Shown here one piece after another: positions 6,001-12,000 of a stretch of 42,969 bases of DNA. Made by a program: the position numbers. The DNA is from Candidatus Omnitrophota bacterium. GTDB taxonomy: Bacteria > Omnitrophota > Gorgyraeia > Gygaellales > Profunditerraquicolaceae. The first letter of the stretch is position 1, and each line of letters starts with the position of its first letter. The DNA lies in NCBI GenBank assembly GCA_018895075.1, contig JAHIOW010000027.1, positions 1 through 42,969 of the forward strand. The letters are read 5' to 3'.

Positions 6001-9000
6001 ATTCAACAAAATGTTGACTATAGAATTTCATTAGCCCTTGAGCATGCCGAGCAGCCTCCTGTGCTCTTTGTTCGTCGCCACTCAGATAATAAGATTTAAT
6101 TTTGGTTTTACCGTCATCTACCGCATAAACCAATAAACTTTTAGACACGCTTAGGCTAAAATCCCTCACCGGTAATACGGTCTCTAAACTTAAAGTCTTG
6201 GTTCCGTCAGGGTTGAGGGTTTCTTCTTTTAAAGAGCCGCTTGAGGCAACCTTTTCGTTTTGATCAACAGTAAACTTAACTTTATAGTAAGAGGCATCGC
6301 TAATATATGGCTGATGATAAATGTAAAATGGATAATTATGCCAACTGTTTTTATCAAAAACGGATAATATCGGATACCAGCGCGCCAGTGTAATAATATC
6401 TTTGTGCCAACCGAATCTGCCGTAAGCATGAGGTATATCTAATTGGAAATCTATATCAATCTCACAAGACTCTCCTGGGCTAAGGGCAGAATCCAGATTT
6501 ACCTTAAGGATGGTCTGGTCTTCTCCTTCAATCATATAAACCAGCGGCCCTTTAGAGTAAGAAATATGCCTTATTTTTAAATCCCCGCCTTGGAACCCTC
6601 CAGGAAAAAGATCTATTTTAAAATAAGCTGCATACCGATAAAGAAGCCTGATTTCTTTATCGGTATATCTGCGGTGGGGATAGATGTGGAAATAGATTTC
6701 GTTTAATTCCTGATTAGAATTATTAGTGAATTTTACTTTTTGTTCGGCGCTTATCTTATGATTATTAGTATCGAGGTGTGCATTGATTTCGTATCGGGGC
6801 GGCTCTGAAGCAAAGCTAAGGCAAAAGGAAAAAGTAAAAAGGCAAAAGTACAAGGTAAAACTAAAAAGTTTTAAATTTTTAGTTGTGGTTTTGCGTTTTA
6901 CGTTTTTACTTTTGAGTTTAAGGGGCAGATATCGCATTTGGGTTTATTTTTTAAACAGACCTCTTTACCTAACCTTACCAAGAGCGCATGGTATTCATTA
7001 AATAATTTTACATTGGATTTAAGATTTTGCATAAACAAATTTTGTATTTCACCGTAGCTGGCATTTTTTTTAACCAAACGGTGTCTTAAAAGTATCCTTC
7101 TGGTATATGCATCAACTACAAACACCGGTTTTTTTAAGGCATATAGCAATATAGAATCTGCGGTCTCCGGGCCAATACCATTTATAGAAAGTAACTGTAG
7201 GCGTAAATCCCGGGTATTTATTAGAAGAATCTTTTGAATATTCCCCTGGTAAGACTTAAATAAAAAATTCAAAAACGCCTTTAATCTTTGCGCCTTAATA
7301 TTGAAATACCCGGTTGGCTTTATCAGCGTGGACAATCTTTTCTTGGATAGCCTATAGAGTTTACGCTGCTCTAATAATTTGTGCTTTCTTAGATTATTGA
7401 TTGCCTTTTCTACATTAAGCCAGTTTGTATTTTGGGTAAGAATTGCGCCTACAATAACTTCAAACGGGGTATCAGCCGGCCACCAGTGTTGTGGGCCAAA
7501 ATGAGAATATAACTTGCGATAGATTAAATCGAGCTTGCCGCTCATTCCTGAAGTTCTAAAGGATTATAGTCATAATAGGCAAAAAGGGTATAGGTAGTGC
7601 CGGACACAGAACCCGTAAATTTACCCTTAGGCGTCATCCAACCGTGCCCGGTATCTACGGCATCCTGGGTGGCATAAGGAAGGCAACTTTCCCCTTGGCC
7701 TGAAGGCGAAGAACTGGAGATAATCATATTGCTCAACTCTGCTAGATATTCATCGGCTTTATTTTCGTAAGACCTGGCCTTAGCAAGCATGCCTTTTTCA
7801 TGGTAAAAATCTGCCACGATCTTAAAGGCTATAACCATCTGGGCGGTCCATTCCGAAGAAACTACGCCACCTCTTGGGCTATGTCTCTGGGAAGCAAAAT
7901 CAAAGCCTTTGATTTTTATAGTTTGGCCTTCGGGACGAGTATAGAGAACCTCGACTGCGCAGTTCTGTTCGGCAAATTCTATAATCCTATCTGGATTCAT
8001 CCCTAAGTCCTCTAGTTTGTCCGGGCCAATAGCTATAATGGAATAGGCATAGGTATCGGTGGCAATAGTAGAATCTCCCCGGCCGCGTTTAACAGGTATA
8101 TCTAGGCTATCATAAGTATGCTGGACTAACCAGGTTAATACCTTATCGCTTGCCTGCTGATAGACTAATTGGCCAGTAATCTTATACAACATATTAAAAA
8201 ATGCATAGGCATCCAGATTATGCTCTGTGGAATACCAACTTAGATCTGGACCGCCGCAAATACCACCATCTTTATCTTGATCCTGTAAAGAGATTATGCC
8301 TCCAGCAATCTCTTGTGCTAACCGAAGATAGCTATGATCTTGCGTTATTTCGGTATATTGTAATATCGCTATCCCCAGCCAGATATTAGGACCGCTATGT
8401 ATAGCATACTCCGCAGGAGAACCATCGTTAGCAGAGTAGGCATTAAGAAATAATTTATCTATTCTTTTGGCTTTTTTGTCAAAAAAATCCATTATTTTTC
8501 TCGCTCGCTGAAAATCACCAAAATTTGTAAAGGCGCAAGCCACCAGGGCTTGATCGTAAATTAATGCCCACTCAGCAATATCGCTGTCACCCTCAAAACT
8601 TATTACTAGACCTGTGCGTGGACTCTGTTGAACCTTTAACCACTGATACATCTTATCTAAATTTGCCTTTTCAAGATGCACCTTCCTTTTATCCAAGCGT
8701 AGTAATTCTTCGGCCACGCTAGCTTCTTTGCCTTGAACAGCGATTAGCTGTTCTTGTAGAAAGGTTTTCTCCTGAGTTAGTTTCTCAATAAAAACATTAA
8801 GTTCTTCTATTTTTTTAGCTGCCTTAATCTCTTCTAATTTGCTTATATTTCCTAAATCCGCCTTTTCGCCATTAACATTCTGAATCTGGAATTGCAAACC
8901 TTGAATCTTGATTTGTAAGTCCTCCTTTGCTTTGCTTGTTGCTTTTATCTTCTGTTTAGCAATACTGGATTCCTGGAGGATATTAATCAGTTGCGTAACC

Positions 9001-12000
9001 AAGGCCTTGTTGCCCTTAATTAGTTTGATATTTAGGTAGGTGTTAATCGCAAAAAATAAACCCAATATAAGGATTATGACCACAACAGACGGGACAAATA
9101 ATTTCTTTGTCCAAGCGTAACGCATAATCGTATTGTTTCCCCGAGGGTCAATATTGTCGTAACTTAAACCAATGAGATATCTATTCGGTTCGCCTATTAT
9201 GTCTTGAACCCAACCAACCTTTGCCAGCGCCGATACCGCATTTTTGGCTAAGGGTATCTCTATACCTAAAGATAATTTTACCTGTTGGGTTTTGATCAGT
9301 TTGGCTAAGTCAGGATTTAAATTATTAATATTCAGGCAAATCCCACCCTTACCTATATTATTAGAAAAACCCTGCAAATAATCGGAAACAATTTGTTTCC
9401 CGTCCAAACTTACCAGCCTAAAACTTACCGGAAATACAGAGTCCAAACGGATATACTTTCGGCGCTCTGGGCCATGTTGATCTTTCTCTTGCATATCTAT
9501 TTTATCTCCTCTAATACTATCCTCTGTTTAATCTTTTTTGCCAGGTCTTGGAAGAATTGTTTAAAATTAAGATATTCTTCCTCCGAAACCTTATTTTTCT
9601 TTAATTCTATCTTTTCTCTAAAATATATCTTATTATCTTTACGATTATATTCAACGCTAAATTCTAACCAAGGGCTATCGGCGTTCAGGCACTGGGGCAG
9701 GTATCTTATAGCAAAATTATCAGGAATTTCAAACTCCAATATTGTCTCTTTGGTATTCAATATATCAAAATCGATCGCATATTTGCGCTTATCTTTTGCT
9801 ACCAGGGATGTATCTAATGCGGATAACTCCGGCATTATCCTTAAAGGCCCTGCTAGAGTACAATAATCAGTCCCATTAAATACATAGCTTAGCGCCAGGG
9901 GGGTATTGAGGTCATTTAAGTTTTTCACAACATAGCTGTCTAGTCTTGCGCCTATAGAAATCTCCTGTATTTTTTCTTTTATGGTCTCTTCTACTAACTC
10001 TGGCGGTGTGTAGAGTAGCCAAAACCTTTGCGCCTGATCATATATACCATAGGTGAAAATAGACCTTTTGGCAGTTATAGTCTCATCGCTATTGATCTTG
10101 ATATCAACGCATTCTTTTAGCAGGTTGTGGTGGGCAGGATATAAAGGGGTATCCTGTATTTGATATCCGTCATTTTTAAAGACCAGGGTTTTGCGCCCCT
10201 GGTCATCAATGGGCAAATCACCAAAGGGACAGGTTTCTGCTGTGGGGTCCAAAAAAACTATCTCATTATCTAATGATACGCAGGCGATACAATGATTAAA
10301 CTGCACAGAAGGAAAATCTTCATTAAGGTTATAATAGTCTTTGGTAGAAATAAGCACTGGCCAGGCATCAAAACCTGCTTCCCTGAGCATGGCCACCAGA
10401 AGTATGGCCTGGTCTTTACAGTCTCCGTATTTATTCTTAAATATATCGCAGGCAGAATGTGGTTCATAGCCCGCCTGTCCATATTCTACTGCCACATAGC
10501 GGATTTTCTGGGCGCAGAAGTTATAAATTGCTTTTGCCTTTTCTGCGTCAGAAACAAGACCTGCGGTTAACTCTTTAATTTTATCCTTTATTGCGCTATC
10601 TACCCCTATCTTATCTTTGGCCAGAGGCCACCACCAATCATAAATCTGGCGCCATTGATTGAATGTAGAGATGAGAATACTGGGATTAATCTCTGTGCCT
10701 GGCGGCATATTTGACTCAGGTAAAATCTGAGGTATATTATTAAATTGCCAATTATAAATCAGGCGATTATCTTTTTTCTGTATCTTGGGCTTTAAGACGG
10801 CCTTAGAATAGTTATATTTCTCATTAATTGTCTTTATGTACAAATCTTTGGTTTGGGGTAAGTCAATAGTAAGATTGGCATCAATAATTGGCTCTGCTGA
10901 CTGGAGGGGGTAACTGATAACAAAATCTTTTTTATTGATGAGCTGGCTGCGGTAAATCTTTGCTTTATACTCCACTACAGCGCCTTCTGCTATCTCAGGA
11001 AAAGAGATGATAAAGACCCGGGCATTACTATAAAGGGGGAAATTGAGGTACTTAGAGACATCCCTTATATGGCGGCTTCCCACCTCAACTACTGTACCAT
11101 CCGGCTTGATGGTCCGGGCATATTCCAGCTCTACTTTCTCAAAAGTACAATCATAATTTATGTGGCTTTCAGCAAAATCTTCTTTGCCCCGCTCATTCAG
11201 AATTTTGATTATATAATGTATATAAGAAACCTGGGTATTTTCAGGTGTAATTTCAATCTTTTCATCGCAATACAAGATAAGTGCGCCTGCCTGTGGGTAT
11301 TCATCCTCTGAGGGCGACTCAAGCAGAATCTTATTAACCTCGGGATTTATATCTTTTATATGAACCAGACTAACTTGTTTTTCAATGAAATTAAGACGTT
11401 CTGATGCCAAAGGAGCAAACTCTTTAGCCTTTATCTTTTTATAGATATCCAGGGCCTGGTCATAGAGATTCAATTTCTCGCAGGTCAGACCGTAATAATA
11501 AAGATATTCATCGTCTATAATTTTATGCTTATTAAAAACCTCCAGGGCATCAGTGAAATTACCAAACCGATAATAAGAGACGGCTAAAAATTTCTTTGCC
11601 AGAGAATCATTGCTTTCCCTAAATTCTTCTATTGCCTGTTTAAACTTACCTTGATTGTAGTATAATTGACCGAGCGCGAAATGTAACCTGTCTAAATCAT
11701 CGCCCTTGGCAATGAACGCTTTGTAAATGCCTTCTGCGCGCTGATAATAATCTTGGGCTTGCCTTATATAATTCTCTGACTTTTCTAAACTATCCTTTTG
11801 AGTACAACCAGACAGGAGATACAAAATGCAAAATGTAAACATTAAAATGACAAAATAAAATCCAAAATTTTTAATTTTTAATTGCGATTTTGAATTTTTA
11901 TCCATATCTATAATACGCATTACAAGTCCCCTCGCTTGAAACCATGCAAGGGCCGATAGCATTATCTGGCGAACAAGCCTTAGCAAATAATGGGCAATCC

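What a model noticed while it worked through the whole genome (the two positions that open the first line are those of the whole stretch)
7542..9494. PilZ-TM-stalk-glycoside hydrolase
g00167 has a cytoplasmic PilZ domain, one membrane helix, a long coiled coil and a periplasmic (alpha/alpha)6-type glycoside-hydrolase-like head; relatives keep the first three parts and swap in a TIM-barrel hydrolase head. It is a c-di-GMP receptor that switches a periplasmic glycosidase across the membrane, perhaps to open host or own envelope. This would be a new one-component link from c-di-GMP to an extracytoplasmic enzyme.
Evidence so far: Weak Pfam PilZ (9-125), GH76 and AGE-family hits. RxxxR and (D/N)xxxGG PilZ motifs kept in 7 of 9 aligned rows (two are 5'-cut; call 85). 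Full-length in 6 of 41 phylum genomes plus this one; 56% identical in G021; two genomes carry the same PilZ-TM-coil on a different head with WND and ITETG motifs; the head also sits in a 3139-aa frame. Atlas: unnamed clusters in Omnitrophota, Bdellovibrionota, Elusimicrobiota, nearest named GH88/GH76. The genome has several diguanylate cyclases, HD-GYP proteins and two c-di-GMP riboswitches.
(Added by a program. Inside this text positions count along the whole contig: contig position 1 is position 1 of the stretch shown here. "Call 12" and the like, gene names such as g00115 and contig names such as C1 are that model's own, and its searches are not shown. The text may have been shortened before it was handed on; [...] marks where a part breaks off. 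The agent that wrote the report below was given it as the finding of a first reader that could run no searches.)

Follow-up and report, generated by a model that had tools for sequence, protein, structure and literature searches.

The report
PilZ-anchored glycosidase of glucan-uptake cassette
This Omnitrophota gene joins a PilZ domain with intact c-di-GMP-binding motifs, through one membrane helix, to an unclassified glycosidase-fold barrel, and in many relatives it sits inside a beta-glucan uptake gene cluster, so it likely encodes a periplasmic glucan-cutting enzyme whose placement would be set by the messenger c-di-GMP.

Summary
[quoted passage not shown] RxxxR is kept in 263 of 264 orthologs. 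The barrel is an unclassified family, closest in fold to GH15 enzymes and MmpH (Z 34.5, 32.7), and it is not GH76. Three pocket acids (E424, D480, E548) are kept in 164 of 172 heads. Stand-alone heads are mostly secreted, and giant proteins carry the head too. New here: in 11 families the gene lies in or near a beta-glucan uptake cassette (GH158-like enzymes, CBM lipoproteins, ABC importer, GH161 and GH94 phosphorylases). 102 of 117 carriers have GH161. In this lineage the gene has moved among housekeeping genes. The stalk is probably a hairpin that brings the head back to the membrane. Swapped heads and head-less paralogs favour c-di-GMP-controlled placement over an allosteric switch. Substrate, activity and c-di-GMP binding are untested. 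The scan noted this fusion before in other genomes, and the glucan locus separately.

The parts
7542..9494 (-). Gene for the 650-aa PilZ-TM-hairpin-(alpha/alpha)6 protein (P0001)
   Evidence: 1180 homologs at E<=0.001 among 7996 candidates scored
9117..9467 (-). PilZ domain, residues 10-126 (six strands and a C-terminal helix in the model)
   Evidence: orthologs over the Pfam cut-off
9447..9461 (-). RxxxR motif, R12-R16
   Evidence: 263 of 264
9342..9359 (-). Second PilZ motif N46-x-G48-x-x-G51 (S at 48 in many orthologs)
9045..9101 (-). Single membrane helix, residues 132-150, inside one continuous helix 117-214 in the model
   Evidence: no gaps or insertions over 126-165 in 266 rows
8667..9044 (-). 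Two-helix stalk, residues 151-276, with a break at 215-218; probably an antiparallel hairpin whose second arm runs into helix 1 of the barrel
   Evidence: gaps and insertions peak at 206-225; weak covariation
7545..8666 (-). (alpha/alpha)6 glycosidase-fold head of an unclassified family, residues 277-650
8553..8555 (-). D314, at the start of inner helix 2; likely sugar-binding
   Evidence: 160 of 172 heads
8223..8225 (-). E424, at the start of inner helix 6; candidate general acid
   Evidence: 167 of 172; GH15 acid position inferred from helix order
8055..8057 (-). D480, at the start of inner helix 8; candidate catalytic acid residue
   Evidence: 167 of 172
7851..7853 (-). E548, at the start of inner helix 10; candidate catalytic acid residue
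   Evidence: 168 of 172
9506..9511 (-). GAGGAG ribosome-binding-like site 11 bases before the start codon
   Evidence: read from sequence

Best explanation
The protein is an inner-membrane PilZ fusion whose glycosidase-fold head likely faces the periplasm and likely cuts beta-glucan oligomers for an Omnitrophota glucan-uptake cassette, and c-di-GMP binding to PilZ would set where and with what partner the enzyme assembles rather than flip its active site. Shown: the domains, the single hydrophobic helix, the conserved motifs and pocket acids, the gene context in relatives, and co-occurrence. Inferred: glucan enters by the large outer-membrane barrel; CBM lipoproteins hold it; two GH158-like enzymes and this head shorten it at the inner-membrane face; the ABC importer takes it in; GH161, GH94 and a GH116-like enzyme finish it in the cytoplasm. 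The stalk likely folds back as a hairpin, so the head sits near the membrane. High c-di-GMP, plausibly on host attachment, would dock PilZ on a cytoplasmic partner and cluster the enzyme there.
For: Fold: Z 34.5 (rmsd 2.5, 317 aligned) to GH15 dextran dextrinase and Z 32.7 (rmsd 2.4, 297 aligned) to MmpH. E424, D480 and E548 are all present in 164 of 172 heads, at the starts of inner helices in the model. 27 of 35 heads that start near an N-terminus have a hydrophobic signal-like segment; four of the misses are 5'-cut fusions. Context: the gene lies inside the cassette in 11 loci of families f2, f6, f10 and f15 and in 7 of 12 further loci, of f48, f53, f60 and f65. It is within 20 kb of GH161 also in f63, f70 and f73. 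Cassette identities: GH161 E 3.5e-216; GH158 best PDB match, E 1.4e-12 and 9.8e-9; GH94, GH116 and one GH16 by Pfam; CBM30-like look-alikes; a ROK regulator. Co-occurrence in 251 class genomes: both 102, fusion only 15, GH161 only 47, neither 87. 9 of 10 tested fusion-only genomes keep the GH158-like genes. Control: the adjacent transglutaminase gene has a match at E<1e-100 in only 13 of the 33 carriers, against 32 of 33 for GH161. For a tether: the head is swapped for a TIM barrel (f8) or a TPR (G099), or absent (156-aa f6 paralogs). In G099 both head types are stand-alone genes in one GH94/CBM cluster.
Against: No activity, substrate or ligand binding has been measured. The nearest folds (GH15, MmpH) act on alpha-linked sugars, and the GH15 base position has no conserved acid. 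In this lineage the gene is not beside glucan genes: 0 of the 80 closest loci, against nth in 70 and the transglutaminase in 42. This assembly has no GH161 or GH158-like gene; it is 88% complete, and contig C39 starts at gatA, next to where two relatives carry GH161. Kin are not independent, so the 2x2 table overstates. The GH158 assignment is remote, and the GH94's best match is cellobiose phosphorylase. The indel-free helix from PilZ through the membrane suits a mechanical relay equally well. No cytoplasmic partner was identified.
Confidence: 0.45

Rival explanations
1. One-component switch: c-di-GMP binding moves the continuous helix through the membrane, shifts the hairpin's second arm and barrel helix 1, and turns the glycosidase on or off.
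For: Helix 117-214 is continuous in the model, and helix 219-288 runs into the barrel. There are no indels over 126-165 or 256-265 in 266 rows, and conservation rises at both membrane-near ends. Stalk lengths share one heptad phase in 145 of 265, although 130 of those come from two common lengths. N162-W285 and N162-M282 are among the top covarying pairs.
Against: The same PilZ-TM-stalk carries unrelated heads or none. Stalk length runs from 42 to 184 residues. Secreted stand-alone heads keep the same acids without any regulator.
Confidence: 0.22
2. Alg44-like co-polymerase: PilZ activates a glycan synthase in trans, and the head trims or transglycosylates the cell's own periplasmic or surface glucan.
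For: The order PilZ-membrane-periplasmic part matches Alg44 (PMC4436075, abstract). The top fold match is a retaining transglucosylase (PMC12446779). GH161 reactions are reversible (PMC6484121).
Against: No recurring multi-membrane glycosyltransferase appeared among the cassette gene clusters (not every ORF was scanned against Pfam). The cassette has a solute-binding-protein importer and a ROK regulator, which are catabolic signs.
Confidence: 0.1
3. Envelope-opening enzyme that attacks host or own cell-wall glycans during predation.
For: The head recurs in giant proteins with its acids intact. Giant proteins are proposed to degrade prey walls, and one has a GH76-like fold (bioRxiv 2023.11.21.568195, passages). 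One long carrier also has LysM and M23 domains.
Against: An inner-membrane anchor with a short hairpin could not reach a host wall (inference). The context is glucan uptake. The fusion has no peptidoglycan-binding domain. A host beta-glucan substrate would merge with the best explanation.
Confidence: 0.1
4. Outside-in sensor: the head binds an oligosaccharide without cutting it and signals to PilZ and its partner.
For: There is no conserved acid at the GH15 base position. The TIM variant has D in place of the acid/base E (WND).
Against: Three acids are nearly invariant even at 26-40% identity. WND also occurs in stand-alone secreted TIM proteins, so it is a subfamily trait.
Confidence: 0.08
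5. PilZ is a c-di-GMP-independent anchor.
For: G48 replaces the usual S/A here; the strict motif is in only 148 of 266.
Against: RxxxR is kept in 263 of 264 rows, and the genome has 5 GGDEF matches and 2 c-di-GMP riboswitches.
Confidence: 0.05

Closest known systems
Alg44 (Pseudomonas aeruginosa alginate co-polymerase)
   Same: N-terminal PilZ with two arginines, embedded in the inner membrane, with a periplasmic part (PMC4436075 abstract; the hairpin-type periplasmic domain is recalled)
   Different: Alg44 activates the synthase Alg8 and has no enzyme domain. Here the outer part is a glycosidase-fold barrel, and no synthase recurs in the cassette.
GH15 family (dextran dextrinase 9JU0, isomaltose glucohydrolase 5Z3A, glucoamylase 1LF6) and MmpH (7QSJ)
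   Same: (alpha/alpha)6 barrel, Z 30-35; an Asp before helix 2 and a Glu at the alpha5-alpha6 junction
   Different: 10-14% identity. No conserved Glu in the alpha11-alpha12 loop; Tyr607 is conserved instead. Extra conserved D480 and E548. Known members act on alpha-linkages.
GH161/GH94 beta-1,3-glucan utilisation clusters with ABC importers (PMC6484121)
   Same: GH161 in tandem with GH94, and a solute-binding protein with two permeases
   Different: The Omnitrophota cassette adds GH158-like enzymes, CBM lipoproteins, a large outer-membrane barrel and this PilZ fusion.
GH76 alpha-1,6-mannanases
   Same: Weak sequence similarity over helices 4-6; Z about 25-27
   Different: The catalytic DD is replaced by G368-P369.
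Loci beside Omnitrophota giant genes (bioRxiv 2023.11.21.568195; bioRxiv 2026.06.07.730766)
   Same: Small pilZ genes, solute-binding proteins, transporters and 'GH2' hydrolases are noted there, matching the cassette core seen
   Different: The passages seen do not describe a PilZ-membrane-glycosidase fusion or GH161.

Membership tests
PilZ c-di-GMP receptors | RxxxR motif | tested here: met
   R12-R16; 263 of 264
PilZ c-di-GMP receptors | (D/N)x(S/A)xxG motif (consensus recalled) | tested here: inconclusive
   N46 and G51 are kept (261 of 266), but position 48 is G here; strict form in 148 of 266
PilZ c-di-GMP receptors | six-stranded barrel and Pfam PF07238 | tested here: met
   six strands in the model; this protein is below cut-off, orthologs are above it
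PilZ c-di-GMP receptors | binds c-di-GMP | not testable with these tools
   needs ITC or DRaCALA
GH76 | catalytic Asp-Asp before inner helix 4 | tested here: not met
   the DDN-W stretch of 4MU9 aligns to G368-P369-N-x-W; G in 166 of 172 heads
GH15 | (alpha/alpha)6 barrel | tested here: met
   Z 34.5, rmsd 2.5, 317 aligned
GH15 | general acid Glu in the alpha5-alpha6 loop (PMC12446779) | tested here: inconclusive
   E424 lies at the start of helix 6; no residue-level superposition was available
GH15 | general base Glu in the alpha11-alpha12 loop (PMC12446779) | tested here: not met
   by sequence only: E602 in 182 of 266, D611 in 188, D614 in 247 among fusions, none conserved family-wide; Y607 in 160 of 172
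GH15 | sequence similarity to members | tested here: not met
   no GH15 chain among 22 PDB hits at E<=5 with the 43-row head profile
AGE / cellobiose 2-epimerase | catalytic His pair at inner helices 8 and 12 (positions recalled) | tested here: not met
   D480 and S629 occupy those helix starts; no His is conserved family-wide (H425 121 of 172, H617 108 of 172)
SGL clan (GH144/162/189) | E239/F286/Y367 triad (PMC12102758) | not tested
   no residue mapping was possible; Foldseek TM about 0.5, lower than GH15 and MmpH
Alg44-type co-polymerase | cognate GT2 synthase in the same cluster | tested here: inconclusive
   none recurring in the loci seen; genomes were not searched for one

The most novel reading that the evidence does not exclude
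A true one-component transmembrane switch: cytoplasmic c-di-GMP directly gates a periplasmic enzyme of a new glycoside hydrolase family through a rigid helix and hairpin. It would turn on beta-glucan harvesting when an Omnitrophota cell commits to a host, and the same enzyme family is deployed up to three times in giant surface proteins.
Probability: 0.2. Interest if true: 0.85.

Novelty: new variant of a known kind. Interest (0 to 1): 0.64.

Why it matters
PilZ membrane effectors are known for turning polysaccharide synthesis on. Here the same kind of module is tied to what looks like polysaccharide harvesting, in nearly half of the genomes of an uncultured, host-dependent class. The cassette link gives the first testable substrate for an unclassified barrel family (884 representatives at E<=0.001) that also recurs in Omnitrophota giant proteins. 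One soluble 374-residue domain can be assayed and would bear on what these organisms take from their hosts.

Tried and rejected
Sequence search of the PDB with the single protein gave nothing useful, and NCBIfam gave no family. A complex prediction of two copies of residues 8-292 with c-di-GMP gave no verdict. No RNA holder was listed for the region. Profile scans for distant named loci could not run, as there was no conserved stretch, so the 80 loci are close relatives only and the context of heads outside Omnitrophota is untested. Covariation for the hairpin is weak: about twofold enrichment, p 0.01-0.2 depending on a window chosen after looking. Stalk-to-head couplings looked like noise. 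The transglutaminase neighbour was rejected as an obligate partner. G014 was rejected as an independent case: its gene nests in family f10 and lies on a 3.3-kb contig. G007's head falls outside the fusion clade (quick tree). The idea that WND marks a dead, fusion-specific TIM head was rejected. C34 and C67 of this genome do not hold the cassette. The tree fits an ancestral cassette position, but support is only 83 and the careful search did not finish.
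Full report
Observation. The ORF at 7542-9494 (minus strand) encodes 650 residues. It sits 2 bases after a TPR/transglutaminase gene and overlaps the start of an endonuclease III gene. It has 1180 homologs among 7996 scored candidates, and the named ones are Omnitrophota. All 81 aligned close homologs have one hydrophobic segment, with more K/R before it than after. In 266 full-length sequences, RxxxR is kept in 263 of 264 rows with letters there and (D/N)xxxxG in 261; the strict S/A form is in only 148. 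Orthologs pass the Pfam PilZ cut-off. The genome has 5 GGDEF matches, 7 other PilZ matches and 2 c-di-GMP-I riboswitches.

Structure. AlphaFold2 gave a full model at pLDDT 85.3: a six-stranded PilZ, one helix from 117 to 214 that includes the membrane segment, a break at 215-218, and a helix 219-288 that runs into the barrel. The head alone folds at pLDDT 96.4. Against 48,161 representative chains, the best matches are GH15 dextran dextrinase (Z 34.5, rmsd 2.5, 317 aligned), MmpH (32.7), isomaltose glucohydrolase (31.3) and bacterial glucoamylase (30.5). Cellobiose epimerases follow at about 30 and GH76 at 25-27, all at 10-14% identity. Among 172 distinct heads (191 near-full domains before removing duplicates; half under 40% identity), E424, D480 and E548 are all present in 164, with Y313, D314, G368, W372, Y607 and W619 also conserved. 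These sit at the starts of the inner helices, where such barrels keep their pocket (general knowledge). The GH76 Asp-Asp aligns to G368-P369. GH15 needs a Glu base in the alpha11-alpha12 loop (PMC12446779, passages), and no acid is conserved there family-wide. The head is therefore an unclassified family that looks catalytic. I could not superpose residues, so these mappings rest on sequence and helix order.

Location and stalk. 27 of 35 heads that begin near an N-terminus carry a hydrophobic signal-like segment, and several carry FN3, FlgD-Ig or CBM-like tails. This supports export. In the fusions, indels concentrate at 186-235 and peak at 206-225; there are none over 126-165, and conservation is lowest at the break. 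Two short variants lose roughly symmetrical stretches around residue 218 (G145 and G067). Covariation leans weakly antiparallel. The stalk is probably a hairpin, which would place the head near the membrane rather than at the end of a long rod.

Modularity. The full fusion is in 33 of 151 phylum genomes and its head in 117 of 251 class genomes. Family f8 swaps in a GH-A TIM barrel (4 of 4; Pfam GH2_C over cut-off in the 2 scanned). G099 swaps in a TPR, and family f6 has extra 156-aa PilZ-TM proteins with no head. In G099 both head types are separate exported genes in one cluster with GH94, CBM proteins and GH35. P0121 carries both heads in one chain. The head also lies in giant frames of up to 17,411 aa, three times in one of them, with its acids intact.

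Context, the main new result. In families f2, f6, f10 and f15 the gene lies inside a conserved cassette: a sugar-binding protein and two permeases, two TIM-barrel proteins, CBM-like lipoproteins, a large outer-membrane-type protein, and GH161, GH94 or GH116-like genes (11 loci). The TIM proteins match GH158 best (E 1.4e-12 and 9.8e-9), a beta-1,3-glucanase family (PMC13195107, abstract and passages). The phosphorylase matches GH161 at E 3.5e-216, a beta-1,3-glucan phosphorylase family known to cluster with GH94 and ABC importers (PMC6484121, passages). The GH94 is closest to cellobiose phosphorylase. In 251 class genomes the counts are: both fusion and GH161 102, fusion only 15, GH161 only 47, neither 87 (kin are not independent). 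Of 26 same-contig pairs that I picked out by eye, 21 in 7 families are within 20 kb. I fetched 12 more loci, 8 of them from fusion-only genomes: 7 show the gene inside the cassette (f48, f53, f60, f65; one with a GH16) and 5 in a housekeeping region. 9 of 10 fusion-only genomes tested keep the GH158-like genes. As a control, the adjacent transglutaminase gene has a close ortholog in only 13 of the 33 phylum carriers, against 32 of 33 for GH161.

Against the link. In this window's lineage the gene is detached: none of the 80 closest loci has a cassette gene within the flank. This assembly lacks the cassette, although all 9 sampled family members have GH161 and the GH158-like pair. It is 88% complete, lacks neighbouring genes such as lepB and plsY as well, and contig C39 begins at gatA, beside the GH161 site of two relatives, so a gap is the likely cause. 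The nearest folds act on alpha-linkages. A quick tree puts cassette-linked copies in two deep lineages, which fits an ancestral cassette position but only with support 83.

Mechanism. The best reading (0.45) is a periplasm-facing beta-glucan glycosidase of the uptake cassette, with c-di-GMP-bound PilZ docking or clustering it. Interchangeable heads and head-less paralogs point to a general tether. A direct switch (0.22) stays open because the helix from PilZ through the membrane tolerates no indels and the second arm is continuous with the barrel. An Alg44-like biosynthetic role (0.10), envelope lysis (0.10), a sensor (0.08) and a ligand-independent anchor (0.05) are weaker.

Novelty. Paper searches for Omnitrophota + PilZ, Omnitroph + laminarin (77), PilZ + glycoside hydrolase + single transmembrane (78), Velamenicoccus + glucan (108) and PilZ architectures (119) showed no description of this fusion; I saw only listings for most hits. 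West-Roberts et al. (bioRxiv 2023.11.21.568195; passages and sections 10 and 11) note small pilZ genes, transporters and hydrolases after giant genes, and a GH76-like fold in one giant protein that may be this family. The 2026 complete-genome preprint has no occurrence of PilZ or GH161. Supplements of both preprints were not seen and may list these genes. PMC9883506 and PMC12102758 were seen as passages, PMC4436075 as abstract only. Earlier notes of this scan describe the same fusion in other genomes and the glucan locus separately; a word search for both together found none. I class it as a new variant of the Alg44-type membrane effector carrying an unclassified hydrolase-like family. Interest 0.64.

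Noticed in passing
L179:6327-6797, L180:6316-6786, L181:6246-6716: 156-aa PilZ-TM paralogs with no outer domain in family f6, next to tilS-ftsH-folP-cdaA
   Followed up: partly
L194:6835-9936 (G174): 1033-aa frame fusing an M48 peptidase to the whole PilZ-TM-head protein; true fusion or assembly slip not checked
   Followed up: no
L187:4235-5650 (G000:C5): 471-aa protein with two membrane helices, a weak AMIN hit and a C-terminal PilZ: a second membrane PilZ protein in this genome
   Followed up: no
G069:C3, G061:C6, G139:C13: Giant frames of 13,817, 16,310 and 17,411 aa carry the same barrel, three copies in G069; GH158-like domains also occur in giant frames
   Followed up: partly
L032-L035, L182:6680-8044, L183:433-1794, L184: GH-A subfamily with Asp (WND) at the acid/base position; best whole-barrel PDB match 9FZ9
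   Followed up: partly
L049:4018-6831 and homologs: About 900-aa outer-membrane-type protein of the cassette with no Pfam or NCBIfam family
   Followed up: no
L048-L051, L057, L160: Chaperone-usher-like pilus genes follow the cassette in f10 and sit beside GH161 in G061
   Followed up: no
window 37433-39910: UvrD-associated PHP-type gene apparently interrupted by an intein-like insert (C-L...LAGLIDADG-like...HNC; from reading the translation)
   Followed up: no
window 4070-6937: M1 aminopeptidase fused to an Omp85 barrel
   Followed up: no
window 19084-20598: 504-aa protein with an alginate-export-type porin hit
   Followed up: no
L067 (G000:C67): 7.6-kb contig with a sugar ABC and GH3-like cluster unlike the Omnitrophota cassette; may not belong to this genome
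   Followed up: no
window 906-1922, 11898-14306: hypE-, hypD- and hypF-like genes are scattered around the finding among unrelated genes (names from reading the translations)
   Followed up: no
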